A DNA stretch of 64,000 nt from Octopus vulgaris (taxonomy: Eukaryota), in the NCBI GenBank assembly GCA_951406725.2, contig OX597816.1:100936001-101000000 (forward strand), read 5' to 3'. How positions within the stretch are numbered: the stretch's first letter is position 1; the number at the start of each line of letters is the position of its first letter. Below the pieces are notes generated by a model that worked only from the letters and a program-made list of their open reading frames with translations, made no database searches and was not told the origin of the DNA. Positions 13,347-46,821 of this stretch are shown here, piece by piece. Position numbers and translations under genes: made by a program.

Positions 13347-14801
13347 ATATGGATGTTGCTACCAGGACAACAACGGGTGATGGTTGCTATGAGACAAGCA
13401 TCAGGTCGCATAACCAGCTTAGGTTTGGCAGGGTAATGATGCATAACTTGCACAACCGGCTTGTCATCTTGATTTGTAAGTAGTGTAAGCGTATTTATCT
13501 CTTGAAGGACATCGACTCAGAGAGCATACCAGGTGCTTTGTGAGGGTGGAAGGAGGTAAGAGGGATGCGTAAAGGTGCTGTTGGTGAAAGTGCTGCGAGT
13601 AGGCTGAGCACAGAAAATACTTTTTTGAGAACGGCAGATATCTAGCGATCGTTGAAGGAAAAACGAAAGCAAAAAACAAAAAAATAGAAAGAAATGTGTT
13701 AAAGAAAGAAAGAGTGAAAGAAAGAAGGATCGTTGAAGAAAGAAAGGCAAGAAGGAAGCAGAGAAGTTTTGTATAGAATGAAAAGGTTACACAGAAAAAC
13801 AGACAGACAGACAGAGAAAGTAAAAGAGAGAGAAAGAGACAGACAGACAAACAGGGGTGAGGTGATGGTCGTGAAGTTTTGTGTAGTTGATAGTTTTCTC
13901 AATGTTATGCAATATTTAACAAAAGATAGATAGAAAGATAGATAGATAGAGAAAGAGGGGGTAGACAGAAAGTCAATGAAATATATAACAGATTGATAGT
14001 GATAAAGATGTGAAGTGTGTGTATGTGTGTATGTGAGGGAGAGAGAGGGAGAGAGAAAGAGAGAGAGAAAGATAGAGGTAGAAAAGACTGAAATATGTGA
14101 ATTAAAGTAGAAGAGAAGGCAGTAGGGGTGAGAAAAGGTGCGCCGTGGATTTGAGATAAAGTTGATTCAATGCAAGAATATGTCGTCAACATCAAAATGT
14201 CTTACTCAAACAACAATTTCAAGACCAACAACAGCAACAAAAAATATAAATAAAAAAAATAATAATGAAATAAAACAGGAATAAAGAAAAAACACCAAGA
14301 AAACACTTTAGAATTAAATAAAAGTTTATGCTTTGAACAAACAACAACAACAAAAAGAACAACAAAAATAAACCAAATCTATTGCATGCTTGATCTGAAA
14401 CCGTTTGTCTGTTTTGGTGTTTTAACGTTGTAAACGATATTTACATACATCACATAAATATATACCCAAGACATATATATATATATATATATATATATAC
14501 TTGTGTATATATAGATATGTATACTTATATACATACATAGATATTTACATATATATGTATTATACATATATGTATATGTATGTGTATAGTATATAGATAT
14601 ACATGAGAGAGAAAGTGAAAGTGAGAGAGAAAGGTGTGAGTGTGACAAGGAAAGGCTATATATATATATATATATAAGTGAGATGCTTAAACGGACAGAT
14701 AATTACAGGCATATCCTTTGGTGAGAGGGGATGAGGAGATGTCAGCAAAAAAAAATTTAAAAATTAAAAAAAATAATTGTTTGATGGCAGTCTTAGGTGT
14801 T

Positions 14802-15016
14802 TCAAGACTGTTGAACACGGGCCCTGAAATCCCTCGGGTCTTTACAATAGTCAAGAAGTTCTTCAATGGTACAGGTATTGTAGCAACACTCACAAACGAT
14901 CCCACTCCAGTTGCGGTCACGCTTCACCAAGTAGGACTTGGCTTTCTTTTTACTAATGATAATGTCTTTGAGTGTACTACTTCTATGGCGGAGACCTCGG
15001 GATGCATAAGGTGATA
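14802..15016 (-). CDS. Terminal coding exon of a molluscan-type (8-Cys class) insulin-like peptide precursor: C-peptide end, A chain and short tail
   Basis: Translates as [70 protein letters not shown]. It has the insulin A-chain motif CC-x3-C-x8-C with GIV and Y-C, a KR convertase site in front, and an extra Cys in GIVCECC. It is preceded by the acceptor ttttatcttcttcttttgcag, giving a phase-1 junction inside the C-peptide as is typical of insulin genes. Confidence 0.95.
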
Positions 15017-15045
15017 CTGCAAAAGAAGAAGATAAAAGAGATCTT
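15017..15045 (-). promoter_or_regulatory. 3' splice site (polypyrimidine tract and CAG) of the insulin-like exon
   Basis: Minus strand reads ctaagatctcttttatcttcttcttttgcag|TATCACC. The ORF-track extension to 15071 is intronic. Confidence 0.85.
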
Positions 15046-15489
15046 AGCTTGTAAAACATAAAGAAATTCATCAGTTAGGACAGTAACAATATCACCAACA
15101 GCTGTATCTTCATAACCATCAACAATGCCATTGAAAACCCTTCGAAATATAACTGACACGCATATCATCACCAGATCATTTATATTCAACGAATACATTT
15201 TATACATTTATTCTTTTACTGGCACCGGATAATTAAAAACGTTAAAAGAGAATCTACAAACAGCAAGCAAGGTAGTTAACTGGAATAATACTGGATCAGC
15301 TGATATTATGGAACAAGAAGGTTTTGTAATCATGCACAGCATTCACATAGCTGTATGGAAACATTTAGAAAATGTTCTCACTACCAGAACACGTAACTCC
15401 AAGTTTTCCTAATTATATTTAAGTGGGAAGAGACCTACTTTTATAAAGACATACTTTTCAAAAAAAAAAAAAAAGAAAAGAAAAAAGAC

Positions 15490-17200
15490 GGGTATTCCAT
15501 ATGTAAACATAACAATGAACATAAGGTCCATTCAATTTAGTGATGTTCTTCAGTAGATTAAAAGTTATTAAAAAATTGGTCATATTTCGATCATATTTCT
15601 AATCTTGCATTTAGAAATGCAAGAATTATATACATTTTTCGTATCTTTTATCCTGTTCTAATATAGTCCATTTTTCTCAAGGATCTTCCACTTAATATTG
15701 AAATTGATTCCATGTTCTTTTACATACCAGATGTAAGTAGACAACTGCGTTACATTCCTCTTTCTTATATGTTTAAATGATGAAATGTGACCATACCTAC
15801 ATTAAATTTACACACTACGTTAAAGTTTTATTTGTTGGAGGCGACTTCACTTTATATATGATTGCTTCGACAGTGCATGACTGATTAAGGGAGATGCATT
15901 AATATTTTTGCATACATAGTTAGGCTAAGTTTATTTAGTAGGGTAATATGCTGTTAATTTTTTTGTATCAGTAGCACAATTGTAACTCAGTTACAGTTAA
16001 AACTGTTTCTGTAGAATAATTTTTGTACCTGTAGTTAATAGAGAAATTCTAATCCGTTAAGGTTGGGGATTCTTAGTAATGCTAGACTTCCCATATTAAA
16101 ATGAAGATTGTATTAACCAGATATTATTACAGTGTCTTTTCTTAGTGTAGGATAGCAGTACTGGATGGAATAAAAAGATCATATCTTTAAATACACTAGA
16201 TTCAAATGTATTATTATAGTACGAGCCACTGTATCAAAGATATTGTCATTCGATGACAATTTGGATATTTTACTGATAATATTAATGAGATTTTTAAGGT
16301 GGCGAGCTGGCAGAAACGTTAACACGCCGGGCGAAATGCTTAATAGTATTTCGTCTGTCTTTACATTCTGAGTTCAAATTCCGTCGAGGTCGAATTCACC
16401 TTTCGGGGTAGATAAATTAAGTTGCGTAGTGAGGTCGATCTAATCGGCTGCCCCGCCTCCCCAAAAATTTCGGCCCTTGTGCCTAGAGTAGAAAAGAATA
16501 TTAGTGAGATTTTAAAAAGTTATGTTTGGCAGGAGTCTAAATTATTGCAAGTTTTTCAATAGATTTTCAAAAAGTCTTATATAAGTTTGTAGCTAATTTG
16601 ATAGTAACATCTGAGAAATTATTGATGTTTAAATAAGTGATAGTAATTCATTTTAAGCTGAATTCGGTGCAGGTGTTAATAAGGTAATTTTTAAAGTATT
16701 ATATCTGTAGAGTTTGTAGGATACAGGAAAGCTATAATTTTTGCATATGTTTATTGGGGTAAAATTCTTATTTTGCTCATATAGATTATATTTAGGCCAA
16801 GTTCGCATACCTTAACACTATCTTAAGATCTCGTGCATCAAATTAGCCTGCTGAGTTTGATTTTTTGACCCAAGAAAAATTAATATAAAAGGATAGGGTT
16901 TTTCCAAATATGGATAATATCAATTTCATTCTCATCTACATTGATATATATCTTAGCGAATTCTAAAGGAATGATGATGAGAGGTTAGTGATGTAATTCG
17001 TGAATGTCGAATTGGCTGTGAAGATAATATAATTAATAATATCTTTCGAGCAAGCTTGTGACTGTAACACTGCTGTTACCGGAATCTTCATTTGGGCTAG
17101 AGGCAAAATTCGTTTTATAGTCATTCAATGTAACATACTTCTCGCGTTTAGGCAAACATTTTATGCTATTTTCAAATTTATTTTATAAGCTATGTTTTTG
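15490..17200 (-). mobile_element. Degraded Penelope-like retroelement (RT thumb and GIY-YIG endonuclease remnants)
   Basis: Minus-strand translation of 15673-15795 gives YGHISSFKHIRKRNVTQLSTYIWYVKEHGINFNIKWKILEK. About 15845-15898 gives CISLNQSCTVEAIIYKV. Both fit the PLE endonuclease C-terminus. Many stops and frameshifts; boundaries approximate; interrupted by a SINE. Confidence 0.75.
16297..16497 (+). mobile_element. SINE family A with target-site duplication, nested in the Penelope remnant
   Basis: Family A head and core, flanked by aatattaatgagatttt and aatattagtgagatttt. Confidence 0.88.
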
Positions 17201-17221
17201 TCTCAATATTTATATTGATCT

Positions 17222-18269
17222 TAATTTATCCAGTCATATATGGTTCTTAAAAGAAAAAAAGTGTCAATTACAACATCCATTGGAAGATCGTAGCCAAGTG
17301 TAAACCTTACACCAGCAGCAGTGGAAAGTGCGGTCTTTGTGATATGGAAAGATGGTTCATCTGGAAAAGCACCCCGCTGATTGACTAAATTCAAGAACTG
17401 AACTTTTTGGATCAATTCCACATATAGCTAAATATTTGCTATGTTTTTGGTCCCCCAAAGATCACAGATAGAACCTGCTTTTTATATTGTGTCCGCGTAC
17501 AAGCATTTTATCTCTCTATATTTTATATATATATATTTTTACATATTTTTCTGTATATTACCTTTCACCCTGCATTTTTTGTGCATGTGCGTATACAGAT
17601 GTGTATATGAACATATTTGTGCGTGTATGGGCATACATACGTGTGTGTGCGCGCACATGTGTGCGGGTATGTATATGTGTACATGTGTATGGTTGCATAT
17701 ATATGTATACATATAGGTGTGTGTGTGAGTGTGCATGCATGTGTTTCACACGAGTGTGAGTGAGCATATTCATATATAACATATGCGTATTTAGACGTGT
17801 ATATGATTATAATTGTGCGCGTATGGGTATGTGTACGTGTGTGTGTGCGTGTATGCGGATATATGTGTACATGTGTATGGTTGCATATATAAGTGCACAT
17901 ATAGGCGTGTGTGTGGGTGTGTATATGTTTCACGTGAGTGTGAGTGAGCATATGCATATAGGCACATGTACGTAGGTGTGCGTGCGAGCATGTATGTATG
18001 TACATGCGCGCATACGCGATTTCTATGAGCTTTTTTTACTTTCTCTTCGGGTTTTTTTTCCTTTATTTAACGGTCATTCTAATAGCTCTTTCCTTTGTCT
18101 TAATAACGGTCATTTACATTGTAATTTCCTTTTGTTTAACGATCATTTTCATAGCATTTTTGTTTGTCTTAATAACTGACGAGATGCCGGAGCAGATTTT
18201 CCGCCCCGACATCCGAAACTCGGAGTTTTATTATGGCACATATATCATTGTCACATATTATATTACACA

Positions 18270-18290
<21 letters not shown>
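17222..18290 (+). mobile_element. 3' end of a second Penelope-like element (GIY-YIG C-terminus, repetitive 3' region, hammerhead motif)
   Basis: With frameshifts it reads NLSSHIWFLKEK/VNYNIHWKIVAKCKPYTSSSGKCGLCDMERWFIWK/LNSRTELFGS (LSxHIW, CxLC and LNxRxE motifs of PLEs). It is followed by internal tandem duplications and a hammerhead motif at 18170-18233. Confidence 0.75.
18170..18233 (+). ncRNA. Type I hammerhead ribozyme-like motif
   Basis: TAATAA-CTGACGA-GATGCCGGAGC...GCCCCGACATCC-GAAA-CTCGGAG-TT-TTATTA: 6-bp stem I, CUGANGA/GAAA core, imperfect stem II, near-palindromic stem III, GUU triplet. Confidence 0.65.
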
Positions 18291-18326
<36 letters not shown>

Positions 18327-19029
18327 ACACACACACACACATGTATATGTATATATGTATATATATATATATATATATATAATACAGTTTGTATATATGT
18401 TTTTGCTACAGTTAACATGGGAAACACTCAGTAATTAACAAAAACAATTGTAGCAATTTGGATTAATGCCTGTTCATCCTATCTTTTTGTATTATAATTT
18501 TTTGCATGAATTCTGCGGATACGAACAGATTTCCACCTGTATATCCAGTAAAAGGAGAATTCTTGCAATATGAAAACCTAAAACAGCCGATGCCCTTTGG
18601 AAAACGCGTTATAAGATGATATTAAATATTTTTTGCTACACACACAAATGTATATATATATATATATAACGTTGCTACAAATTTACAAGTTCCTCTTGAT
18701 TATTTCATTTTAGTCTGTAGAAGAATGTGCAAAATTGTCTTATTCATCCTAATAAAGATATATAAATTCAGCAAAAATTGCTTATTGTACCGGTTGACTA
18801 ATCGGTTCAGTCAGTGTTTTCAACTAACACGAGATGAGACAAACAATCTCCGAAACAGTTACATGGAAAACAGAGGTCACATTTTGTGGTATATTTGAGG
18901 TCCGTTCTTCTCAGATATTTCATATACACATAAAGTTAAGGCACCAACCACAAGTTGAGACGTTTTGCCATCAGTTATTTTACTTTTTCTCTCGTCTAGT
19001 TTAACTAGATTTGAACTGTCTAGATTCGG

Positions 19030-19064
<35 letters not shown>

Positions 19065-19079
19065 AATGATATATAGTAT

Positions 19080-19232
19080 AAGGACCCTTCATCAGTTGTC
19101 GGCTGTCTATCTACTCCTCATTTCGACCAAGGGTCCTTTCTCTATGTTTACTTGTCCTGTTCTCCATTTTTTCTCGTTGTTTATGTATTTAACCCTTTAA
19201 CCCGTTGATTGAACCGTTGGTGATGTCCTGTA
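19080..19232. mobile_element. Rearranged (internally inverted) copy of the 3812-4006 repeat
   Basis: 19080-19126 has the same orientation as 3925-3970, while 19129-19230 is the reverse complement of 3815-3930. Confidence 0.6.
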
Positions 19233-19678
19233 AATATGTGTGTGTGTGTGTGTGTGCGTGTATGTATGTATGTACGTACGTACGTACGTACGTATGTGTG
19301 TATGTTTGTATATATGTATGTATGTAATTGTTTCAGTCACAGGATTACGGCCATGCTAGAAAACTGCATTGAAGTATAAAATTGATTTAAAGTACTTCCT
19401 CTAAATCTAGAAGTTATTCTCTTAGAGCTGAACCTCTAAATGGGAGGGGGGAGAAACCACTGCAGTTTTTCATGTGGTGAGGGAGAAACACAGAACACAC
19501 CAGCACTTGCATACACACACACATATATGTATATTATTGCATGTACGTATATATGCATGTATGCATATGTTTATATATTTAAATATACGTGTGTGTGCGT
19601 GCGTGCGTGCGTACGCTTGTGTCCGTGTTTTTGTTTAAGAACCTGAAAACCAATGTTTCAAAAAGTTCAGTATATATG

Positions 19679-19737
<59 letters not shown>

Positions 19738-20313
19738 CGATGAATATATATATTGATAAAATATTATATACTAGACTGAACTATTTACTGGGGTCGATAT
19801 AACCCGCGAAGTCAGCGCCTTAGCATAGTCAGGGAGCAATGACTGCATCCAGGAAGGAATAATAGAATTCAGTAACTTTCTTATAAGCATATATATTGAC
19901 TGCAACAACAAGATAGAAACAATAAAACAATAACGACGTCTTCAAAAACAACAGCAACAACTTAATGCGGAAGCATCAAAGCTTCCAACTGCAACAGCAA
20001 CAATAGGAGCGCAAATAACAATAACAATAACATAGCAACTATAACAGCAACATCAAACAGAATAGGCAATACCATCATAGGAAGACTTGCACCTGAAACA
20101 ACGTCAACAATAATATCGTGCATGATCAATGGCAATTACGACAGCAGGTGCAACAGAAATAGTGCTAACTGCAACAACAAAATAAAGGCTGACAGTAGGC
20201 GTGGTTGTGTAGTTAAGAAGTTTCAGGTTGCACTTCAGACAATTGGCTTTGACATAGTCGTGGGTGAAATGGTCTACATGCCACTGTATACACACGCACA
20301 CATGCGCACACAC

Positions 20314-20371
<58 letters not shown>

Positions 20372-21844
20372 ATTCACTCACTCACTCACTCACTCACCCA
20401 TATGGTTGCAAAGCAAGGTTTCTTAGTGCTCTGAAGTAAAATCGCATCTGGTACTCCTAACTGAATAGGTATAGGAAGCCAGAATAAATTTTGCAACCCT
20501 TTACACCTGCGCCTGGGGATGACTACCCACCTTGCCTCTGACTGATACACCTACGTATGTATGTATGTATGTATGTATGTATGTATGTATGTATGTATGT
20601 ATGTATGTATGTATGTATGTATGTATGTATGTATGTATGCAGCATGAAAAAGTATGTATGTAAGTAACAAGAAAAAATACGAGTATTAAAGTGGAGTGAT
20701 AAAATAGATTTGAAGTTGAAAAGTATACAACAGCATAAAACCCGATGAACGGAAGTGTTCGAACAAAACCTCTTTGTTGTATTTATTCTGCCCGAGTTGA
20801 CAGACATCGAAAAGGCAGTGAACTTGTTGATCGGCTAGTTGGAAATAATGAACTACTTGCGCTGTTATTGCTCAAATCCATTATATAAAATACTAACAAA
20901 AAAAATCTCAAGAAAACATTTAAAAGCACCTGCAATGACAACAACGAAATATCGTAATCAACAGCGATAGCAACAAAACATTGTAACAACTGTTGCGTCA
21001 ACAACAGTATCTCTAACAAGCCAATGAGGAGATTTCTAATGGTCACCCGCCCAACTAAAATAGCAGTTAAATTTCCTTCAGATCATTCCATATTGTCTTT
21101 ACGCACTAAAGTTTTTAGTCTTGGGTACGCTATAGCTGTGGAAAAAAGTATGGCTCCGGTAGGAACGCCTCAATCGGAGCTAATTTGTTGTTTAAAATAT
21201 CAGCAGTTACATTAGATATTCAGTGATTTTTTAGTTCACTTCTATTGGATTGAAAGTCGTCGATACTATTAGTGTTTCCGCTGATGTGTACACCCTAATG
21301 AAGCTACTTAGACACTGAAATATGTAAAATTAAGTATCGTGATTAAGGAATAGTGACGATCAGACAGAAATTGCCAACAGATACTTTGATTTTCTGATAC
21401 CCATTCGATTCCTTTAGTCAAAGCTCTCACCATAGTATTACCAACAGCTAAAACAATAACAATCTTAAGTTGCTATTGCATCAATGATTCCATAGTTTTG
21501 AACAAGGAACGTTTGCTCATGTCTGAACAGAAATGAAAAAATAGGCTGGTAAAAATTGCATTAATTGATAAACAAAATAGTATAGATTCTGCAGACATGG
21601 AATTGAATTAACTGTAATACACAGTTAATTTATATATAAAAAAGTGGCTCTCAGGAATAAGGCTGAAGCTAGAAACATGATAAGGTTCTAAGTTCATGAA
21701 AACACCTTATTTGGCAATTGTTAGCAAAGAGCAAGGCTATTTACGAATGAGTTACGCATGAATACAGCCAAGATGCCTAACAAATATGTGTGAGATGAAT
21801 GAGAGAAGGGCTGTTCTTGGTATAAACATAATTATGGTTCTAAT

Positions 21845-22010
21845 TGCTCCAGCAATTTCGAGGTGAGGTATTTAGTCGATATCATCGACCCGATTATTTG
21901 ACTGATGCTTTATTTTATCAACTCCGGAGGAATGAAAGACGACGATGACTTCAATGAGAATGAACCGCAAGATATTTTGTCCAATGCTCTAACGATTCTG
22001 CAAACCCATC
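21845..22010 (-). mobile_element. Degenerate SINE family A
   Basis: ccagcaatttcgagg...tcgacccgattatttgactgatgctttattttatcaactccggaggaatgaaag...taacgattctgc resembles the reverse complement of family A. Confidence 0.6.
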
Positions 22011-22879
22011 ATTCCCTTTGCCTAAACAAAATTATAAATAAACTAATGGACATTCTCCATGCGTGTAAATAATATCTCTTTCATTAATTGGCTCTAATTT
22101 GTTAATTGTTGTTAGATTAATGGGATTAACTCCTTGCTCAGTTGTTGATTATAACAAAATTAACTAGTAAAAGGAATGACATTTTGAGGCCACTTCAGTT
22201 TGTGGAAACCAGTGGCACTTGATAGTGAATCTATGATATGGGTGTCAGTAATGACACACTGTAGCTTTTTAGGTGACATGTATACGATGGGCTTTACAAA
22301 CATTTCCCTGCAGTACCACGTTGCAAAAACCTTATCTCGAAACATTTACCTAAAATTAAAATATATGTAAACATGTAAATAACGCTATAAATGAAATTAA
22401 AATTGTGATGCATCGTCATCACTGTCCTAAACTGTAGTTTGCTTAGCTTAGGTATATGTATAGATCTTGGTTTGGAAGACAATGGTGGATGACAAAATTG
22501 CAGAGTAGCACGACTGCAGAGGTGTACGAAGATGAAGAGAGAGAAAATAATTTTCGACGTCTAACAAACGTCTAGACCGTGAGAAGACTGAGAAGTACAA
22601 AATAACTGGAACTAAATGTACAGAACACACAAAATGCGTTGTTAGATAGAGAAACACCCGAAGTATTATACATTCTTAATTTCTATCATTAACTGCACGA
22701 ACGACTATTTTGGCGGTCAAGTGGATTGACATCTTGACTACTGTAGAATAATGGATGTGGTTGTTGTTTTTAATACAGAACCGATACCTATCTATTTCTC
22801 ATTACAGTTAATGCTTCTTTTTATTGTTTGTTTTTCGTTCCTTTTCATTGGTTTGGTGTGAAGAGGCCCTCTGAAGACA

Positions 22880-23270
22880 GCTGTTTAATATGTAGAGGAT
22901 GATGTTGAACAGCAGCTGCAAGTTGATGGTTATAGGAAAAACATAGACCAGGAGCGAATTCTGGAAACTAGTATTAAGTGGTGGGAAAATTAGACGTTAG
23001 CGGTAAGTGCAGTGCATGTAGTGGGGGTACAATACGAGTGAGAAAAGGCAGTAAGAAGTAGGCCTAAGGGGAGGCGACACGTGATCAAAGAAATCTTGAG
23101 AAGTAGTGGACGCTATTGTAGCTTTAGAAGTGCCAAAGTGGGGAGGCAGTACATCTGTCGACCACAGGTCGGAATGTATTGGGTAACAATTTTCAGCCGG
23201 TTAGATGAGTAGCCGTCTTTGTTTTTTGTTTCTTTTTTGGTGGAGATAGTTGGGATGCATTATATAGAAC
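22880..23270 (-). mobile_element. Degraded CR1/L2-like LINE 3' fragment
   Basis: Minus strand ends ...QNSLLVYVFPITINLQLLFNI, resembling the WNSLP..VFP..YNLQ.FK terminus of these LINEs. Heavily decayed. Confidence 0.45.
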
Positions 23271-23906
23271 ACTGATCCATTACTTTTCCAGAAGAAAGAT
23301 CTATTCACAAGGATAACTTCATGAGTCTTTAAATATAAATCATGCTGTACATTGGGTATTAATTTAATCGTGCATTGTATAAGATGCTCATAAATTTACA
23401 TTTAATTGCTTTAGATTGTTTTATGCAAAATATACAAAAAAAAAAGAGCAGCGATCGCTGTGGTCTTATGAAATTAACTGTGCCTCACCAAATTTTTGCT
23501 ATGAATTACGTTGTGCATCACTGGTCTGAGTTATCTGTGCATACACACATGCTGTTGGCGATTTCATTTCCTACTTTGGACTTTTCCCGTTCTCCTTTCC
23601 ATCGAAGAGCAATGCTCGAAACGTCAAAAACTCTCTCTTTTTACTGAGCGTCAAATTACTACATTCCTGTGCACGTCCTTTTGTTGTCTGTTAGTGTTAA
23701 TTTTATTGCTCGTTTATTTGAATTGACTACACATATTTATACATACATACGTATATGTGTGTGTGTGTGCGTACGCGCGCGTCTGTGTGCGTGTGTATGT
23801 TTATGTTTGCCCATGTGTGCGAGTATATGTTTGCATACCTGTCATCGTGAGCATGCTTAACTAAACGTATACCAATATCGTCTGCGTGTGTGTGTGTATG
23901 TGTGTA

Positions 23907-23945
<39 letters not shown>

Positions 23946-24324
23946 GTTACATGTGGATCCATGTATGTACATACGTTTGTTCTCGACTGTATTTTATGAC
24001 TATAAAGTGTTTTTGGTTTGTGTTTGATGCGTGTATACACTTTTGCTGCATCAGTATTTGTATATGCATCTGTTGCCAGTATCTTTGTATGCCTGCACCA
24101 GAGTTGGCATCTATGCACAGAAGCAAGAGGCGTATGTGCTTGTATGTCGGTGTAAACCATACTGTATGTGTGCGTGTGTGTGTGCGAGTGCATGTGTGCG
24201 TGCATGTGTGTGAGTGTGTGTGAGTTTAGATGTAGCTATTTACATAAAAATGTGTCTGTTTATAAGTTTGTGTATTTGTCTAAAAGTAGGTACCTATATA
24301 GATGTGTACCATATATGTAGATGT

Positions 24325-24361
<37 letters not shown>

Positions 24362-24763
24362 TGTGTATGTATATGTGTATATATATGTGTGTGTGTATGC
24401 GTGTGTTTGCGTGTATGTAAGCGTGTGTGGTAATATCTACATACAACTGAGTTGTTGTTTAATGTGTCTTGTTGTTGAAATTCCATTCATGCATGGCGTG
24501 TTTACCAAATTATTTTCATAACATGTCGGTGCATTTATTCATCCAACTGCACACATTACAACATCAGTGCTACTGCAAGCTGCATTGCAGCGATATCTCT
24601 CTAATTAAATTACTTTTCTAAATTGCATCTACGGCTTCTCTTCATTGTGTATTGGAAAACATATGCATGTGTGTAGGAGGAGTGTGTGTGTGTGTATGTG
24701 TGTGTTTCTGTGTGCATGAAGGAAGTGTTTGCATGAGTGTGTATATGTCTATGTATTAGGGGA

Positions 24764-24805
<42 letters not shown>

Positions 24806-25001
24806 CTGCGTGAGTATATATATATGTATATATATATATGTGTGTGTACCTATATGTCAGGAATTATGTAGGTGATCTAGTTGCTGTATATGAACAAATA
24901 CATTATATTCAAGTATGTGGTATGTGTGTATGCGTGTGTTTATTTGTGTCACTCTTTCTTTATCTGTCTGTATATACGCGCACACACGCACACACACACA
25001 C

Positions 25002-25049
<48 letters not shown>

Positions 25050-25216
25050 CATTCATTATTTATTATGCATGCTCCCATAAGAATTTGTGTGTGCTTGTAT
25101 GCATTTATGTAGGTAGGTTGCTCTCTGTGTGTTCTTGTGTCTGCATTTGTTTGCATACATGAAAACATATCTCCGTACATTCATGCACAAATAAACTTGT
25201 GCATGGGTCTGTCTTA

Positions 25217-25256
<40 letters not shown>

Positions 25257-25983
25257 TGCCTGCTTGCGCACACGCGTCAGGAATGCTGCAAGATAGATAC
25301 GCTTAATTTAATAGACTTCTAACATTGATAAAAAATATGCTCTTTCCAGAAGTTGTAAAAGTAAATAAGAAAGGGTGTCACAAAATATCAAGATGCTAAA
25401 GCTTAGTGGATTTGGTACGCTGCAAAATCTATCCATCTGCTTCAGTCTTTTCGACCAAATTTCATTTTTTCATATATTTTCTTTGGGTGTTTCTTATCAT
25501 TTGATAATCTTTTATACCATAGTAAAGACAAAAAAGAAATATATTATATACTTCCCCAAAAACTTTTCTATCTTCTCTCCTCGTGACAAGAGACAATGCT
25601 CAAACCCTGGTATATTTTAGTAAATAAATATGACCTGTGAAACCCAAAACTTCTTAAGATCAGACACCACATGAGTGGTTCAACTCGACACTGTAAGACG
25701 AGACACTCGTGAATTTTAGTGTTGTTGCTGATGTTGCTTATAACTTCAAACGATCCCACTATATGTCACACTCCTAAAGTTAGGCAAAGTGGCTTTAATT
25801 TCTCTACTGTTTGATCATGGAGGGAAAGTCAGTCCTCGTGATCTTTTATTTTTGTTTTCCAGGGTCTCTGACTATGGTGAGAGCAAGAGAGTATGTTATT
25901 CTCAAATCGGAGACCTGACCTAAATGCAATACAGTGATTCTCACTAAAGGCACCATACAACGGTATTAAATTATTAAATTAAA

Positions 25984-26217
25984 TAGGCGGTGAGCTGGCA
26001 GAAACGTTAGCACGCCGGGCGAAATGCGTAGCCGTATTTCGTCTGTCGTTACGTTCTGAGTTCAAATTCCGCCGAGGTCGACTTTGCCTTTCATCCTTTC
26101 GGGGTCGATAAATTAAGTACCAGTTACGCACTGGGGTCGATGTAATCAACTTAATACCTATGTCTGTCCTTGTTTGTCCCCTCTGTGTTTAGCCCCTTGT
26201 GGGTAATAAAGAAATAG
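25984..26217 (+). mobile_element. SINE family A, full length and young-looking, with target-site duplication
   Basis: Complete head, core and tail. Flanked by ggtattaaattat on both sides. Confidence 0.9.
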
Positions 26218-27262
26218 GTATTAAATTATGACAGATTAAATCTACCACCTAAAAAAATTCACAGCGTGAATAGTCAGAATAAATTCTGCAATGTGTCTCA
26301 TTCAACGTTCTAAAAATTCTGACAATCTCTCAGGATTGGAACTTTATTTTATCGACTCCTAAAGGATGCAAGATAGAGTTGACCTCGACAAGATTTGAAC
26401 TCAGCATGCAGAGAACCGGAACCAGTTATTTTCCTCTACGCTGTAACTGCTGTCAAATTACCGCACACTGATGAAAGACAGGCGTCAGGATCATTATCAC
26501 GATGGACACGTGAGTACAGGTAGCAAGATTTGAAACACTGTCTGACTGTCCACCAAACCTACTGGTCTGACCATCGGTGGTCCTCTATTTTTCATATAGT
26601 AATGCATTACCTAAATCTGAACGTTTACTTTTGCGATAGCCGTACGTATGTGTGCGCACGAGTGCGTATGTGTGTGTGCACGCACGTGTTGTATATGTGT
26701 ATGTGTGTAATTTTTTCGTCTAAATTTGATGAAACTGACATAAAGTGGGACGAGAACCAATATTTTTAGCTTGGCAAGTAAAATAGAATACCTTGTCAGG
26801 AAGAGCATGAATTAAGTAATAGTTGTAGAAAGATTCGAGCCGACTACCATTAATTCGGCAACACAATCCTTCAAACTAATGAACATTAAATATAACTATG
26901 TTAATTTAAATTAAGCAAAGAAAATATTTTAATTAGGAAAATGACAAAAGAAAGCTGAGTGGAAGACACATTTACCATTTAACCTTGATCGAGTAGAGAA
27001 GCATAGAGAGCGAAGAATGCTGTGGAATTGTTTGTGAAACGTGGGCGGTGAAAGAGTTTAACAAACAACAAGAAATATGCCATCTTGATGAAATAAACCA
27101 TTCTAAACAGGTGAAATGTAATTAAGAGCTTTTATTCGTCGAAAAGAGTAATTCAATTTTATTCATGACTTATTTCTATGCTGCTTGAAGTAAACAACCC
27201 CTTTGAAACTTGGGTCTTGCAACAAACGCGGGTACATTAAGTTAGAGAGAATGCGAAAAGTA

Positions 27263-27297
<35 letters not shown>

Positions 27298-27566
27298 GGG
27301 GTGTCCGTGTGTTTAAAAGCAAGCAATCCCGACATGCAGCTGGAGATTCGATTAAAAACAACGAAATAAACAAGTCGACATACATGCTTCGCTAAGAGAA
27401 AACAAAGTATGCGGCTAGATATACTCACATAACTACAATCTAATAACGAACATATAAGTGTACACATCACTTACAAACATATAAACAAAATCACATTTTT
27501 TCAAGACCACATTTACATAGAGGTAGATATGCTGTTTACACCTACTCAAATCATATACACGCATTA

Positions 27567-27626
<60 letters not shown>

Positions 27627-27993
27627 GCAGGTGCATTTTCAGGCATGTGCACATACACATAAAACAGTACAGTGTTCATTATAAATTTATTTCCACGAAA
27701 ACTTCGTTAATGTTTCAATTCGAAACGTGATTATTTTGAAATTAAAGAGAAACATTAAATATTTCACGACTGTGTGGGCGGTTATTTTGGCTGTGAGTTG
27801 GTGAGTCTGGTTTGATTAAACGAAAACATGATGTATAGACTTTTCAAACGAATGCATTCTTCCTATATATTTAAATTAGACTCAGCTTCAATTCTTGGTG
27901 CGCAGTTGAGAAATTAATTAAGCTAAGATCGAACAATTGAATCCTCATCGTTGAACGATGAAGATCTAACACAATACACACACACACACACGA

Positions 27994-28048
<55 letters not shown>

Positions 28049-28103
28049 TCGAATCAATTTCACCTGGGGATAAACAGGGTCTTCAGCAAGTTAGAACTTG
28101 TAA

Positions 28104-28149
28104 CTTGCCTGATGATCTTGTGCACCCGCAGGCGAAACTTAGTTGCAAG
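28104..28149 (+). ncRNA. Minimal type I hammerhead ribozyme-like motif (decayed)
   Basis: CTTGC-CTGATGA-TCTTGTG-CACC-CGCAGGC-GAAA-CTTAG-TT-GCAAG. Stem I CTTGC/GCAAG is perfect and the core is intact. Stem II has wobbles and has lost its closing G-C pair. Confidence 0.6.
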
Positions 28150-30078
28150 AGACACACTCGAGTAAAATTGCTATTAATCTCTACTATGATATCTAGTTCT
28201 CTTTTTTCCGACAGTCAACACTAAACGGATATATGTATATCTCTGAAGGATATATATAGGTATACTGGTGCAAACAAGAAAAGTAGTACTCAAATATGAG
28301 TCACTGTTGTCTAACGATGAGGATTCAGTTTTTCGATCAAACTGGACTGCCTGTTCTTCGAATTAGTATGTAAGTGGGTGAGTATTCCGCAAAAAGGTAT
28401 ATACCCATAACGTACTTCTCAATCAGAATCAGCATGACGGAATGTGACAATGCTGTATCCTTTCAATTACAGTTACAATCCAACCGACTGCCTTCTGGAA
28501 AGTTTCAACTCACCCACTTTTATTAAAACGCTAGGCTATAGAAAGTGACAATTGCCTAAGGAGCCAGGCAGTCGAATCGAAGCCAGGACTTCGTGATTAC
28601 AATGCAAAAGTTTTAGATTTATTGATCTAAGGTACTTTTGACCGAGGAGATAAAAACAGGTCGAAACACCAGTATCTCAAAGTCCCCTTCTCTCAATGAA
28701 TCAGGTATGCTGTGAACACACATTGTTTGAAATGAGAAGTTGTTTTCTGTATACAAAACCCAACAGCAACTAGCAAATTCACTTTGGAATCTGTCAGAAC
28801 GTATTAAGAATGAATAAGTACGTCATTGAATGCTAGACATTTTTCTTGAAATTCTTGATAAGGCTGAAGCCAGATACGGAACTCTCCAGTTAGAATGAGA
28901 CGACTCATTATCAATTGTTTGGTTAAAGACAGCACATCAATTAATAGCTGCAATTTGGGTCTATCCAGTGAACAATGGCAAACTGTCTACTTTATAGTGT
29001 CTATTAAGAAGACTGCTTACAAGCTAGTTTAAAACTGCTGTTATTACTACTACTGCTCTTGCTGCTGCTGCTGTACTGCACAGCTGCTGATGCACTGCTG
29101 TTGTTACTATTGCTGCTTTGGTTGTCGTGTAGCCTCGGTCAGCTCCGAGCCAACAGACGTATACAAAAATCGAGTTGTTGTAGGTCATAAACTGTGTACA
29201 AATACATGTTTTGTTTACATGTAAAAAAAAAAATTGGTCTATGTAGATTGGTGGCGGGAAGGATAGCATTCAAAATGATGGGATGCGGCAGCTGAACATG
29301 CAAAGGAAAAAGAAAAGTGTAAAAAAATAAAAACAAGTAATGACTTTTAGCGATAGGTGAGGGACTGTAGTCAAAATGTAGGGACATTCATGGAACTGAA
29401 GACTATCGGTGGTGAGGTGGTAGGGATGGTGATGGTGAAATCACTTTGCTGCTATATTGATGGCCATGGTAGTGTTGCTGATGCTGCTTATCGTATAAAA
29501 GATGTGATGGTGGTGGTGGTGGGGGTGGGGGTGGGGTGGCGGTGGTGGTATTAGTATTTGAGGTGGTAGCACTTGTGGTTAAGGTAATAATTATGGTAGT
29601 AGAGGATGAAATGATGGATGGTGTGTTGGTAGTGGTGGTAATATTTGCATTTTTGCCGTGACAATAGGGTTAATTAGTTCAGTTCCATTCTTCCACTTAG
29701 GAACAACCAGTGAGAGGCACCCAGGTAATAATAATAATAATAATAATAATAACAACAACAACAACAATCCTCATTTTTTGCTATAGAACAACAACAACAC
29801 ACAAATGAACAACTATGTCCTCCGCAAGGAAACAACATAATTGCACACTTAAGTTTGGGGGTGGAAGAGGTGATAGTGGTGGTCATGGCGGCGGTGTGGA
29901 GGCTTATAGGTCAGAGGGCGTTGTGAATGAGATTTTGGCAAAGTGTTTGCCAAAAGGTCGGTCATAAGTCAGGGCATTGCTCCGTTGCAGGTCAGAACAC
30001 TGACCCGAAAAAGTAAAAGGATAAAAAGGAACTAAATTATATATTAAGGAAGTAATGTGATGTGTGTGTGTGTATGTG

Positions 30079-30134
<56 letters not shown>

Positions 30135-30619
30135 CGTGTGTGTGTGGAAAGTGAAAAGGAAAGTGAAGAGAAAAAAACTAAGGGAGAACATAAACGGTTA
30201 GAGTGAAGACAATTATAAAATAACATATGAAAGCTACTGTAAAAAGATGCCATTTTCAATACTAGATACACCACACACAATGACATACATACACATACAC
30301 ACACGCACACATACATACATACATACATACATACATACATACATACATACATACATACATACATACATACATACATACCCACACACAATAACTGGTGTGG
30401 ATACTCAACTCAGTTTTAGCACATACATGTACATATATGCATGTGTGTATGTGTGTGTAAGAAAGGGAGATGAAAATGAAAGAGGGAGAGAGAATGAGAG
30501 ACAGCGGGTGGGAGAGAGTTGGAGGGAGAGGGGGTGAGAGAAAGCAATTTATCACAGAAGGGTAATTTTATATCCAGTTTTTGATTAATTCTTGATATTA
30601 GTACTCGTACACTCAATCA

Positions 30620-31170
30620 GATCGCAGTCGCTCTAAATGTTAAACCTCACTGTCACCGAGGAACTCTCTTGATATAACTAGGACGACATCTCAAAGACTG
30701 GCACCGCTCTTCAACTTCAGAAAATAATTCAGCACCCCGATCCCCACCCGCCACCAATTGCTAATATTAAACAAAACTCGATGAGGTTTGCAATTGAGTA
30801 CTTACCCATTATCTGTGACGATGTTGTTACACACGCACAAAAATCCTAGATCGCATTCAGAGAATGGTCACTTGAATATTTTGGCATAAACCACTCTCAG
30901 ATAATATCTAGCTTCTGACTATCGGTGTACTGTCAACTCTCCCTATCCTTTCTACCGCTACTATAATGGCTTCTGTTATTCAGAGATAACTGGTCTTGTG
31001 CCATATTCACTCAAGACTCCTGACCCATCATTGTGACTCCCTATCATCGCTTATCTGTCCAACCTCTTAAGTCCATGGAAAACCATTATGCACAGTCATT
31101 TCTCTCTTTCCCAACGCCAGCTTTCTGAAACAACTTCCCTGCCTATACTTTTCTTTCCGGTTAATCACAA
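30620..31170 (+). mobile_element. Degraded CR1/L2-like LINE ORF2 C-terminal fragment
   Basis: Translates in pieces as ILDRIQRM and RCTVNSPYPFYRYYNGFCYSEITGLVP, matching the LDRIQ...FYRYY.G.CS.EL..L.P pattern of these LINEs. Confidence 0.65.
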
Positions 31171-31957
31171 ATGTCAGAGCAGGTTAAAAAAGAGGTCTCC
31201 GTTATGAAGTGCCAAAAGATTTCGTCGTACTTCTGCGATCTATTGTCACTTAAACGCCCTCATTCACACACTCCCAGACACACACGCACACAAACACACA
31301 CACACTCATAAGGAGGTGTACTAAACTCAGGCCCAAATCATTTAGAACAACTCTACCGTCTATGTATGTATATATAATGATAGACAGAGAGAAAGAGAGA
31401 GAGAGAGATTTCACGTTCTCCAGTGCCGAAATCGCTATGACTAGATAAAATCATGGCTGACAAAATGACTTTCTGCATGTCTGTACATGCCTCTCTCTCC
31501 TTCTCTCATTCTCTTTCACACATACACACACACACACACGCTCTCTCTCTTTCTTTCTTTCTCTCACTCTCTCTCACTCTCTCTCTCTCCATATATATAT
31601 ACACACACATACACACACGCGTATATATATGTATGTATATATATATATATATATATATTTACATAAACATACATGTATGTAAGTATATATATGTGCGCGC
31701 GCACGCGTGTTTAATACAATTTGCATATATGGTTTTGCTATATAATTCATTGAGCATAATACAGAAAATATAAACGAACCATGCTGGTTGTAAATGAGAT
31801 TTCAAATTTCACCACAAGCTCTCAGAATCAGCCGAAGTATTGTCATATGGATAATTTCTTGCGACATGTTCACGTTGAAAATGTTTGAATGTGCAGTGTT
31901 ATAGGCAGGGATGCAGATACACTTTGTTATATTCTATATTTAGTATTTAACTCCATT

Positions 31958-32168
31958 AAGGCGGCGGGCTGGCAGAATCATTAGTATGCCGGGCAAAATG
32001 CTTAGCATTTCATCTGTCTTTACGTTATGAGTTCAAATTCTGCAGAGGTCAACTTTGTCTTTATTCCTTTCAGGGTCGATAAAATAAGTGCCAGTTGAGC
32101 ATCGAGGTCCACGTAATCGAATTATTCCCTTCCTCGAAATTGCTGGCCTTGTTCCAAAATTTGAAACC
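31958..32168 (+). mobile_element. SINE family A with a long target-site duplication
   Basis: Flanked by agtatttaactccattaag on both sides. Confidence 0.9.
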
Positions 32169-33891
32169 AGTATTTAACTCCATTAAGTAAACAAATTATA
32201 TACATTTATGTGTGCCTGTCTGTGTTATGATGAACTTCTGTATAATTTCTGTAAACCAAGCTGCGTTCATTTAGTCAGCAGAAGATAAACAAAGAATACT
32301 TGGCCAAATTACTGCGCAGCAAGAACGAACCCAGAGCCAGGTGTTTGCGAAGCGAGCGTTTCTCATGCGTTTAATGCCATTCTAACACACGTGCAAGTGA
32401 CGTATTGAAGTAGATTCAGTTGTACCTTGTTATAATTGCTTTACATCATTTTAACCTGTTTAATTGTTGTTATATAAATTTTGGCCAACTGTGTAAATCT
32501 TCAATTTTTTTTTAGTTTTCTTAGATTTCATCGGCATTTTGTGTAAGACTTGTCACAACTGTGAAAATATGTCACATTATAACTATAATTTCAACAGCCT
32601 TAAAAATGAATTCTATTTCAGGAAATGTTTAAGTTAGGTGATATAACATCCTTCTTAATATGTTTATATGTCTGACAGTTGATTTATTAGCAAATGATTC
32701 TTGACAAAAATAGATGGAATTAAGTGTTATTTAAATGAACTTCTTGCTTAAACCATGCGTAGTAACTGACTTTTTTTTGCCTTTAGAATGATCGACAGTG
32801 CCTTACATTCCACAGAGTTGTCAAATGTAAACCACCAAAGCTATGTTAATCTATTACAGTCTAAACACGAAGAAAAAGGTACTCCTAAAATAAAACTGTT
32901 GGAATTCGTTCGCTTTTCTATCGTACAGCAGACAAAATAGATATCTTTAAAATAACCTGTTTGACAAACCACTCAAGTTTACTGAAGTGATTAGTTTTTA
33001 AAATCTTCAGTCTAATATCAAAATGTAAGAGAGGATAGCAATAGAGTTAAAGTAAATGAAGAAAAGAAAGAAAGAAATCAGTAAATTTTTTCTTCATCAA
33101 AAATGTTATGAAATCCAACAATACAGAATGGTTTCAGAATGTCAATCTTTGATTTTATATTATCTGGCCTCTAACTGGGACGAATCATTACCAGCAACAT
33201 GTACTTCCTCTATGATGTTATACTCAATTGCATGAAACCGAAGCTGAAAAATCTACGCCTCAGTCGGAGAAGTGCAAAACCATGACTGTATTCATTAGAC
33301 CCCAATATTTCTTTTAGCCATACCCAAGGAAGAGGTTGAACTTATTAAGTAGGCAGTTCTGATAATTACTGTCCCTACTAACAGATGGGAAGTGTAATAG
33401 TATTTGTCATGGTATTTATAGCTACATTTGTCTGGATATGAACCAACGACTATTTATTCGCTCTAATCTACCGGCTCAACCATCTGGGATTACAAAATTA
33501 CTTTATAACAATGTATCCTGACGTCAGCTGCCGTGTTGTTTTGCTTAGCCCTGTGGTCCGTGGTGGGAATATCTATTTAATTGTTGAAAGGGTTTCTCTA
33601 GGATCTGAGTCATCAAATACGTATATCCGAAATATAAAGCGAAAAGTGTGAGGTTCGGTACAGAAACTTGGGGAGCACCCCACTAGGATTACTAATTAGA
33701 TATAATATGGTCTCTCTTCCTCTCTCTCTCTCTGTCTGCACGCATATATTGTTACATAAATATGTGTCCCACAAACCCACAGCGACAAATAGAAAGTGCA
33801 ATATAATTATATATAATCATAAGCTAACTCACACTCTCACATACAATTTTACGTACTCAATGATATCGAGAAACACACACACACGCACACA

Positions 33892-33928
<37 letters not shown>

Positions 33929-34299
33929 GCGCGCGCATACACAGACAAATACACACACATAATGACATATTTACACACATTTATAGTACTGAAGCTCTGT
34001 CCAGGGACCGAAACCTAAGTATTTTCCTTGGAAACTATAAGTTGCTCTGACATCAGAATATTTCCATCAGTCATGATAATGCAATTGAATGATATTAAGT
34101 ACTTGATGGTTGCAGGCTGCAGAAGTGACCGAGAAACAGAATAATAGGCAGTTTGATTACCTCAGTGGGGCAAGTATGGATGGAACTCACGATGCACATT
34201 CATTTTACTAACAGCAAGCCATTCCACACTGAACTGTCCGTGGCTCCGTTGATATCTCTTACACCAGTTGTTTCGTTTAAAAATAGTAGATTCTCGTTA

Positions 34300-34632
34300 A
34301 GGCGGAATCGATTAAAATAAGTACCAATTGAGCACTGAGGTGGATGTAATTGACTTATTCCGCCCCCGAAATTGCTGGCCCTGTGCCAAAACTTGAAATC
34401 AATATATTAGATTCTTGTAAGGCAGTGAGCTGACAGAATCGTTAGCACGCCGGGGGAAATGCTTAGTAGCATTTCGTCCATCTTTACATTCTGAGTTCAA
34501 ATTCTGCCGAGATTGAGTTTGCCTGTCATCCTTTCGGGGTCGACAAAATAAGTACCAGTTGAGCACTGGTGTCGATGTAATCGACTCATCCCATCCCCCG
34601 AAATTGCTGGCTTTGTGCAAAAATTTTAAATC
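34300..34632 (+). mobile_element. Two tandem SINE family A copies (3' half plus full copy)
   Basis: aaaataagtacca.ttgagcactg...cccccgaaattgctggc occurs twice. The full copy (about 34419-34632) is flanked by tatattagattctt. Confidence 0.85.
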
Positions 34633-36156
34633 CCTATATTAGATTCTTATGATTAGATAGAAATGGATCGCTTAGAGCGTAGAATACAAGAAAGGAAATA
34701 TTTTGCTGGTTGTGCACCTCCCAATCACATTAACAGCGTAAGTGAACTGCCATGGCTTCATAAAAATCGAAATTTGTTTCACAGTGTTCTAAATTGCTAA
34801 TAAATAGATAACTATGTTTTTGGAGTAAGTAAAAAGTCAAATTCTGTGCAAGAGATTATAGCCAATTGAATTTAACCCAGTACCCATTTAACAACCCTGA
34901 CGTGTTGAAATTTGAGCTAGTAACTGTGAAATAAAGAACTCATAATGAAACGTAACATTCAACTCTTTTCCTGCTACATTGTGAGAAATAGATAATGATT
35001 TCCTTTTATTAAAGATAAAGCGAACCCTTACATGGAAGAGGCTACAGTCGACGAAATCCACTTGTATTTATTCTATCGATATAAGAGGAAAATTAAATTA
35101 AATACTATAAGGCATTTAGTTTGATACTCCACTATTTTTACTAACTAGTTATAATACTGTTGTCGATAATATTATTCTGTTTGACATGAAGTTGGAGTGT
35201 TACGCTTTAAAGAAACTTAACTATTGAATGAAAGCAACGGTCTATAAATTTAAGCATCAAATGAGAAATAAGATTATAGAGTGGTAGTTTTCATTATAAG
35301 TATCAATTCAGTTGATAAATAGCTCAGCGATAGGTGGCAAAATCGATAGAAGCCATGCAGTATTTAGTTACATCGACAATCCTTTACATAATTTTAGAGC
35401 CGATAAAATAAAATAGAATTGATGTATTATATTGTTCTCTTCCTTACAACTTGTACCTTGTGCAGGCTATGAAACGCTCTTATTTAGTTTTGGAGAGAGA
35501 CAGTCACCAAAATATTTCAGGCCGTTATCAAACTGGTGAGATTTATGTTAGTAAAGATCACTTAAAACTTCTGCTAGATAAGAAAACGGTGTGCTAAATT
35601 TTTGAAGGAAGAATTGGGTAAAATTGTGGAGATTTGAGGGATTACACACAGTAGAAATAATAAAATAACAACGAAAAGTCATGGGTTAGATTAGTGACTT
35701 TGATGTCTGGAAGCCATGCAGCAGAATAGTTAGTGTCAGAGTTAGTAAACTCTAAATGGGCGGGTGTCTGTTTTAGCCTTTAATTAAAACACATGGGTCA
35801 TATATGGTAGGGGGTAGACTGTGGGACCAAATCTTATTCCTAGGTTTCAGTGACATTGGCACATCTTTTATTGAAACGTAGCGTCAAAGAAATCGCTGCA
35901 GCATGCAGACACAATTGCAATAATCGTGTGCACCACCACTGCAAAATATATCACAGTCTACCCAAAACCTTCTTATTGTTTCTTGTTGTTATTGCTCATG
36001 TTGTTCTTGTTCTTGTTCTTGGTATTATTGTTTTTCTTGTCCTCATTTCGCTTGCTCTTGTTCTACTTTTTGCATCCCAATCTCTTTAGACCACACACCC
36101 ATGCGTATGCATGCGTATATAGTGAACTATATATAATACGCACATACACACAACCA

Positions 36157-36213
<57 letters not shown>

Positions 36214-36632
36214 TGTGTGTGTGTGTGCATGCTTATGTATGTTCATGTTTATATATACGCATAGACGTACACAGTTCATACATGTGTGTGTGCGTGTATG
36301 TATGAAAACGCACACACTCATACACGCATGCACATACATCACAAACGCAGACATAGATGTAGGACAATGATCTCAGACACCGGCCCACCGCAAGGATAAT
36401 CTGTCACCGCCACCATTTTGCCCTCAGCCATACCACTCATACCGCTACTACTATCGCTATCACCATCATCATCATCATCATGCTTTTTTTTATTTTTATA
36501 AGGTTATACAAAAGTGGGGCAGTATTTATAAGTGATACAGAACGCCATGTAAACATTTTCTTGACAAAAATTCAAACAGATGTGGTAATAGTGTGATAAA
36601 TTTGTTGTAATAGTGTGTGTGTGAGCGCGCGC

Positions 36633-36673
<41 letters not shown>

Positions 36674-39177: not shown

Positions 39178-39292
<115 letters not shown>

Positions 39293-45846: not shown

Positions 45847-45906
<60 letters not shown>

Positions 45907-46724: not shown

Positions 46725-46821
<97 letters not shown>

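What the first reader, a model, noticed from the sequence alone, without database searches (positions are those of the whole stretch)
14802..15016. Octopus-type insulin-like peptide exon with an extra A-chain cysteine
Seen: KR followed by [25 protein letters not shown], with five Cys instead of the four in vertebrate A chains. Established: molluscan insulin-related peptides (Lymnaea MIPs, Aplysia insulin, many Conus insulins) use an extra A-chain Cys and an extra N-terminal B-chain Cys for a fourth disulfide. Inference: this is one member of a cephalopod ILP paralog set. It is easily missed by annotation because it is a 215-bp exon in a sea of repeats. Its tissue of expression (brain, optic gland, gut or posterior salivary/venom gland) cannot be read from the sequence.
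Basis: partly seen in the sequence, partly recalled or inferred. Interest (0 to 1): 0.8.

Follow-up and report, generated by a model that had tools for sequence, protein, structure and literature searches.

The report
Known octopus insulin-like hormone exon
This is the last coding exon of an already annotated octopus insulin-like peptide gene of the ordinary eight-cysteine mollusc type, already reported as expressed in the octopus gut ganglion and likely an internal signal for feeding, growth and reproduction rather than a venom.

Summary
The 215-bp minus-strand exon (15016-14802, phase 1, after a pyrimidine tract and AG) encodes the end of a C-peptide, KR, and an A chain with five cysteines. 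It is 100% identical to annotated proteins of Octopus sinensis (XP_036357072, XP_029634273) and O. vulgaris (CAI9719717), whose B chain has the third cysteine. Both qPCR primers for Ov-Mirp in PMC5736919 match here exactly, so this gene is already reported in the gastric ganglion. Its cuttlefish orthologue SjILP (62% identical) was cloned and knocked down (PMC9221753). The extra cysteine is the family norm (124 of 148 non-seed hits). The name 'con-Ins Im1' also labels limpet, abalone, clam and chiton proteins, so it does not imply venom. The B-chain exon lies outside the window (intron about 49 kb or more). My read test of the splice was uninformative. One small lead: all 9 coleoid rows carry an N-glycosylation sequon at the A-chain start, against 0 of 137 other relatives.

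The parts
14802..15016 (-). Last coding exon (phase 1) of the octopus MIP-type insulin-related peptide gene (Ov-Mirp; RefSeq name 'con-Ins Im1')
   Evidence: 100% identical to residues 83-153 of XP_036357072
15017..15040 (-). Splice acceptor: pyrimidine tract and AG (15018-15017)
   Evidence: junction agrees with the O. sinensis, O. vulgaris and O. bimaculoides models
14925..15016 (-). C-terminal part of the C-peptide
14919..14924 (-). KR, predicted convertase site between C-peptide and A chain
   Evidence: K108 nearly invariant in 48 aligned relatives; cleavage itself is inferred
14844..14918 (-). A-chain core, 25 residues, five Cys; the extra Cys codon is 14894-14892
   Evidence: all eight mature Cys invariant in the 48 rows of A2
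14904..14912 (-). N-x-S sequon at A-chain residues 3-5 (occupancy untested)
   Evidence: 9 of 9 coleoid rows, 0 of 137 other eight-Cys-type A chains
14802..14843 (-). 13-residue A-chain tail and TGA stop
   Evidence: tails of 10 or more residues in 81 of 124 relatives
14722..14912 (.). Published Ov-Mirp RT-qPCR amplicon (191 bp here, 190 stated); covers at least 80 bp of 3' UTR (14722-14801)
   Evidence: both primers match with 0 mismatches, once each; 0 of 100 shuffles match
15019..64000 (-). Intron, inferred to run past the end of the window; the signal-peptide/B-chain exon is not in the window
   Evidence: residues 1-82 of the identical protein have no hit better than E 7; window has no N

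Best explanation
This exon encodes the C-peptide end and five-cysteine A chain of the annotated octopus MIP-type preproinsulin, which is likely cut into a two-chain hormone predicted to carry four disulfides and likely signals inside the animal through its insulin-receptor tyrosine kinase on feeding, growth and gonad maturation. Shown here: the exon, its identity with the annotated 147-residue precursor (signal peptide, three-Cys B chain, RR, C-peptide, KR, A chain) and the match of the published Ov-Mirp primers. Shown in print: transcript in the O. vulgaris gastric ganglion; for the cuttlefish orthologue, expression highest in ovary and lower vitellogenin transcripts after RNAi. Inferred: splicing to a B-chain exon about 49 kb or more upstream, cleavage at RR and KR, the pairing C34-C118, C49-C121, C61-C134, C120-C125, and receptor activation.
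For: 100% identity to O. sinensis and O. vulgaris proteins. Pfam Insulin above its cut-off. Eight Cys invariant in the 48 rows of A2. Primers of PMC5736919 match exactly; that paper reports 100-1,000 CPM in gastric ganglion and lower expression in heavily Aggregata-infected animals. SjILP is 62% identical (90/145); its paper reports a RACE cDNA, the motif C(1X)CC(3X)C(8X)C, the predicted four bonds, expression ovary > pancreas > liver > brain, and RNAi lowering Vg1, Vg2, CtsL1-like and follistatin. Silencing the cuttlefish receptor lowers the same four genes (abstract). Against cuttlefish the A chain is 21/25 identical and the C-peptide 17/33, which fits a constrained signalling insulin (PMC5062327). 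The AlphaFold model has helices at 52-60, 116-122 and 127-131, mean pLDDT 75.2. Phase-1 intron in the C domain, typical of insulin genes (PMC8286064).
Against: No spliced read over the acceptor was obtained; the only contig laid ran unspliced across it at depth 2.3. I found no report of the mature peptide, its bonds or receptor activation in octopus; PMC5736919 says nothing is known of its function in cephalopods. The functional data come from cuttlefish and a clam, not octopus. Foldseek gave no match at E <= 0.001, although the top rows were IGF and insulin chains. The B exon could not be seen because no genome is held.
Confidence: 0.9

Rival explanations
1. The peptide works mainly as a local neuromodulator of gut motility released in the gastric ganglion, not as a circulating hormone. 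This is the same gene with a different range of action.
For: High transcript counts in the gastric ganglion; the authors of PMC5736919 favour a transmitter role there.
Against: The cuttlefish orthologue is expressed in all eight tissues tested, highest in ovary, and its knockdown changes ovarian genes. Knockdown of a clam ILP placed in the same MILP3 clade slows growth (PMC13198591).
Confidence: 0.2
2. It is a venom insulin of the posterior salivary gland, as the database name 'con-Ins Im1' suggests.
For: The annotation name only. Con-Ins Im1 is 35% identical (50/141).
Against: The same name labels proteins of Patella, Haliotis, Mya, Liolophura, Littorina, Babylonia and Lineus; that several of these are non-venomous grazers or filter feeders is my own knowledge. 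An abalone protein is about as close (43/111, 39%). The mature chains are conserved, unlike fast-evolving venom insulins. A 2026 cephalopod venom-gland survey lists five kinds of hormone mimic and no insulin; its models included chordate but not molluscan insulin, so this is partial evidence.
Confidence: 0.03
3. It is processed like IGF and stays a single chain with a D-domain-like tail.
For: Best PDB sequence and fold rows are IGF-I and IGF-II chains; 13-residue tail after the last Cys.
Against: Those matches are weak (E 0.014 or worse by sequence, 0.07 or worse by fold). The C-peptide has 33 residues, is flanked by RR and KR and is modelled with low confidence at 75-93. Tails of 10 or more residues occur in 81 of 124 MIP-type relatives.
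Confidence: 0.04
4. It is an orphan or pseudo-exon with no B-chain partner.
For: No B exon in the 49 kb upstream; one O. bimaculoides model lacks the B chain.
Against: Full-length models exist in O. sinensis, O. vulgaris and Argonauta, and a cloned cDNA exists in Sepiella. The frame is intact, and the exon was amplified from O. vulgaris cDNA.
Confidence: 0.02

Closest known systems
O. sinensis XP_029634273 / XP_036357072 ('con-Ins Im1'), O. vulgaris CAI9719717, and Ov-Mirp of PMC5736919
   Same: 100% identical over all 70 full codons; both published primers match exactly. It is the same gene.
   Different: Nothing at protein level. The amplicon is 191 bp here against 190 stated. O. sinensis and O. 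vulgaris cannot be told apart by this exon.
Sepiella japonica SjILP (QHI00145; PMC9221753) and Sepia latimanus ILP (QHI00148)
   Same: 62% identity, same eight Cys and spacing, same length of A-chain tail, sequon at the same place
   Different: C-peptide diverged (17/33); T instead of S in the sequon. Function tested in cuttlefish only.
Molluscan insulin-related peptides (MIP / MILP3 clade), with annelid and nemertean relatives
   Same: A-chain C-x-C-C-x3-C-x8-C, three-Cys B chain, dibasic sites, conserved C-peptide end
   Different: About 25-39% identity across the non-cephalopod rows of A2; none of 137 has a sequon in the A-chain N-terminal arm
Conus imperialis Con-Ins Im1 and Im2
   Same: Eight-Cys framework, 14-residue spacing of the extra B Cys, 35% identity to Im1
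   Different: Not closer than non-venomous molluscs; not grouped with the octopus protein in a poorly resolved quick tree; no A-chain tail
Vertebrate insulin and IGF
   Same: Core CC-x3-C-x8-C and CG-x11-type B motif; predicted three-helix fold
   Different: Six rather than eight Cys; weak scores only

Membership tests
Insulin/IGF/relaxin superfamily (PF00049) | Score above Pfam gathering cut-off | tested here: met
   28.7 bits against 23 for the exon alone
Insulin/IGF/relaxin superfamily (PF00049) | Phase-1 intron within the C domain | tested here: met
   Exon opens with 2 nt that complete Val83; feature stated in PMC8286064
Insulin/IGF/relaxin superfamily (PF00049) | Three-helix insulin fold | tested here: inconclusive
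   Model has the expected helices, pTM 0.52; Foldseek top rows are IGF/insulin but none at E <= 0.001
Molluscan insulin-related peptides (MIP type) | A chain C-x-C-C-x3-C-x8-C (five Cys) | tested here: met
   motif as given in PMC9221753
Molluscan insulin-related peptides (MIP type) | B chain with a third, N-terminal Cys | tested here: met
   C34, C49, C61 in the identical annotated precursor; the B exon itself is outside the window
Molluscan insulin-related peptides (MIP type) | Signal peptide-B-C-A precursor with dibasic sites around the C-peptide | tested here: met
   Hydrophobic N-terminal helix, RR at 73-74 and KR at 108-109; no signal-peptide predictor was run
Molluscan insulin-related peptides (MIP type) | Four disulfides in a cleaved two-chain peptide | not testable with these tools
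   The structure tool returns no bond geometry; the pairing is transferred from the prediction for SjILP
Molluscan insulin-related peptides (MIP type) | Activates the insulin-receptor tyrosine kinase | not testable with these tools
   Indirect only: ligand and receptor RNAi lower the same four genes in cuttlefish
Conus venom insulins | Venom-gland expression | not testable with these tools
   No tissue-labelled RNA run was offered; published expression is in gastric ganglion
Conus venom insulins | Rapid divergence of the mature A and B chains | tested here: not met
   A chain 21/25 and B core 19/28 identical between octopus and cuttlefish; residues 1-147 identical between O. sinensis and O. 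vulgaris

The most novel reading that the evidence does not exclude
Coleoid cephalopods have gained an N-linked glycan on the third residue of the insulin A chain, next to the extra disulfide, making this a glycosylated mollusc insulin whose sugar tunes half-life or receptor and binding-protein contact. The N-x-S/T site is kept in octopuses, argonaut and cuttlefish (with an S-to-T swap that preserves it) and is absent from all 137 other eight-cysteine-type relatives examined. Against this: the whole A chain is conserved among coleoids anyway, S or T stands at that position in 33 of the 137 others, and Trp in the middle position is recalled to lower occupancy.
Probability: 0.2. Interest if true: 0.4.

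Novelty: already known. Interest (0 to 1): 0.1.

Why it matters
Little as a discovery: the gene is annotated, its transcript has been measured in octopus, and its cuttlefish orthologue has been knocked down. Three practical points remain. First, the work ties the RefSeq entry misleadingly named 'con-Ins Im1' to the Ov-Mirp of the gastric-ganglion paper and to SjILP, so the name should not be read as venom. Second, it gives the likely ligand for testing insulin signalling in octopus feeding and post-brooding decline, where an insulin-binding protein rises in the optic gland (10.1101/340984). Third, the coleoid-specific sequon is cheap to test by glycopeptide mass spectrometry.

Tried and rejected
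B exon in the window: a pattern scan and tblastn found none. Sequencing runs: no RNA holder listed (20 of 24 rows hold half the words or more, none on record as RNA). Laying 4 of those runs on 14605-15400 gave one 202-base unspliced contig (14995-15196, depth 2.3) in X1 and nothing in X5, X9 or X15; no joint and no loose end, so it says nothing for or against splicing. Tree of 117 rows, 85 columns: the careful search did not finish and only the quick tree was read; 59 of 108 inner branches are open, and the four coleoid rows share a branch with two long-branched coral peptides, probably an artefact. I use it only to say that no link to the Con-Ins Im1 or Im2 groups appeared. Foldseek: no match at E <= 0.001. 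Rfam: 0 matches in the window. The 33 stop-to-stop frames of 120 aa or more read mostly as microsatellite translations; they were not searched further. Earlier scan findings: none. Literature: no paper on this gene under 'Octopus sinensis' + 'insulin' (9 listed) or 'cephalopod' + 'con-Ins' + 'insulin' (1 listed); a five-term glycosylation search gave 0 papers. The octopus brain atlas PMC9712504 has no insulin-peptide passage in its main text. PMC6425005 and PMC13311285 added nothing specific. Rejected: 'octopus-specific cysteine', 'unannotated', and venom role inferred from the name.

Full report
Observation. The feature is in the sequence as described. On the minus strand, 15016-14802 reads as two bases, 70 codons and TGA. 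The frame from 15014 gives the end of a C-peptide, KR (14924-14919), a 25-residue A-chain core with five cysteines (C-x-C-C-x3-C-x8-C) and a 13-residue tail; the other two frames are closed. An AG at 15018-15017 follows a pyrimidine tract. The exon alone passes the Pfam Insulin cut-off (28.7 bits against 23). The motif occurs once in the window; 2 of 200 Markov controls had it and 0 of 200 had it behind a dibasic site. The window is about 36% GC and has 119 tandem-repeat rows.

Identity. The 70-residue peptide is 100% identical to O. sinensis 'con-Ins Im1'. That cluster has 3 members: XP_036357072 (153 aa), XP_029634273 (147 aa) and O. vulgaris CAI9719717 (203 aa), all identical over the exon. 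Orthologues are Argonauta hians (82%), Sepia latimanus (62%), Sepiella japonica (62%) and a partial O. bimaculoides model that differs by one residue. The full precursor has a hydrophobic N-terminus, a B chain with Cys at 34, 49 and 61, RR, a 33-residue C-peptide, KR and the A chain with Cys at 118, 120, 121, 125 and 134. tblastn of the full protein hits only this exon; residues 1-82 have no hit better than E 7, so the B exon lies beyond 64000 and the intron is about 49 kb or longer (inferred; no genome is held).

The gene is already in print. [quoted passage not shown] Both match this window without mismatch, at 14722-14741 and 14893-14912, spanning 191 bp, with 0 of 100 shuffles matching. 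That paper reports 100-1,000 CPM in the gastric ganglion, lower expression under heavy than under light Aggregata infection (P < 0.001), and says the function in cephalopods is unknown. PMC9221753 (parts 1-2 of 5 and passages read) cloned the Sepiella orthologue, gave the same A-chain motif and predicted four disulfides, found expression highest in ovary, then pancreas, liver and brain, and saw Vg1, Vg2, CtsL1-like and follistatin fall after RNAi. The abstract of PMC9654127 reports the same four genes down after silencing the receptor. PMC13198591 (one section and passages) places an O. bimaculoides homologue in the MILP3 clade with a clam ILP whose knockdown slows growth.

The extra cysteine is ordinary. 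A profile search of 1.84 billion representatives gave 159 hits, 150 listed. Of the 148 that were not seeds, 124 have the extra A-chain Cys, 16 have the four-Cys form and 8 have no A motif. In an alignment of 48 selected relatives all eight cysteines are invariant. I looked up 19 of the 148: 18 carry names, from gastropods, a bivalve, a chiton, annelids, a nemertean and a coral, and none is a cephalopod. Four searches gave one MIP-type protein per cephalopod species. Most hits remain unnamed and the word-based searches are insensitive, so further paralogues are not excluded.

The venom reading. The name 'con-Ins Im1/Im2' also stands on proteins of Patella, Haliotis, Mya, Liolophura, Littorina, Babylonia and Lineus, so it looks like best-hit naming (inference). 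The octopus protein is 35% identical to Con-Ins Im1 (50/141) and 39% to an abalone protein (43/111). PMC5062327 (passages) contrasts conserved signalling insulins with rapidly diverging venom insulins; the octopus A chain is 21/25 identical to cuttlefish. A 2026 preprint on cephalopod venom glands (10.64898/2026.02.02.703354, passages; supplements closed) lists mimics of stanniocalcin, luqin, myosuppressin, tachykinin and neurotensin and no insulin, but its molluscan model list has no insulin, so this is partial evidence and its supplements may bear on it. PMC12343078 (passages) sees no apparent similarity between MIP-like conoinsulins and octopus insulin. My own tree was a quick, poorly resolved one and adds little.

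Mechanism. Most likely the exon is spliced in phase 1 to the distant B exon (the typical insulin intron, PMC8286064 passages). The precursor would enter the secretory pathway, fold with four disulfides (C34-C118, C49-C121, C61-C134, C120-C125, transferred from the SjILP prediction), lose its C-peptide at RR and KR, and act on the insulin-receptor tyrosine kinase. Shown here: sequence, identity and primer match. Shown in print: transcript in octopus, knockdown effects in cuttlefish. Inferred: cleavage, bonds and receptor. The AlphaFold model (mean pLDDT 75.2, pTM 0.52) has the B helix and two A helices and a low-confidence C-peptide; Foldseek ranks IGF and insulin chains first but none at E <= 0.001. 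Against full certainty: my read test found no spliced record, only one unspliced low-depth contig in 1 of 4 runs, and no run was on record as RNA.

One lead. All 9 coleoid rows (six named species and one unnamed record, not independent) carry N-W-S or N-W-T at A-chain positions 3-5. None of the other 137 eight-cysteine-type A chains examined has a sequon in that arm. It is the only sequon in the 147-residue octopus precursor. The text search of PMC9221753 shows no mention of it. Glycosylated insulin-like hormones have a precedent in crustacean androgenic gland hormones; I saw this only as reference titles in PMC7511715 and as a predicted site in PMC5325528 (passages), and that the isopod glycan sits on the A chain is recalled. 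The signal is weak: the coleoid A chain is conserved throughout, and S or T occupies the third position in 33 of the 137 others. I give it 0.2.

Verdict. Observation confirmed, interpretation right as to family, novelty refuted. Already known; interest 0.1.

Noticed in passing
window 15165-15109 (-): The first 19 residues of the O. bimaculoides UniRef model A0A0L8GK08 map to intron DNA 93 bp upstream of the acceptor (18 of 19 identical). In this window the start reads ATA and no GT donor follows, so that model's first exon is probably an annotation artefact standing in for the distant B exon.
   Followed up: partly
window 14997-14996 (-): The Argonauta model lacks exactly 7 residues at the exon junction. 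An in-frame AG lies 21 nt inside the exon here, so Argonauta may use a shifted acceptor or its model may be off. Argonauta DNA was not seen.
   Followed up: partly
window 14912-14904 (-): N-glycosylation sequon at the start of the A chain in all 9 coleoid rows and in 0 of 137 other relatives.
   Followed up: partly
window 13247-13252 (-): The only AATAAA or ATTAAA on the minus strand within 2 kb after the stop lies about 1.55 kb downstream; the 3' end of the mRNA is not established.
   Followed up: no
window 14964-14919 (-): The last residues of the C-peptide before KR are conserved from octopus to annelids (A102 invariant, L106 and K108 nearly so in 48 rows) and are modelled as a helix at 99-108, unlike the rest of the C-peptide.
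   Followed up: no
window 58487-58840: Tandem repeat of a 121-bp unit, 2.9 copies, 95% matched, inside the inferred intron.
   Followed up: no
window 1-64000: No other evident gene: 0 Rfam matches, and the 33 frames of 120 aa or more read mostly as microsatellite translations. Short exons of other genes would have been missed.
   Followed up: partly
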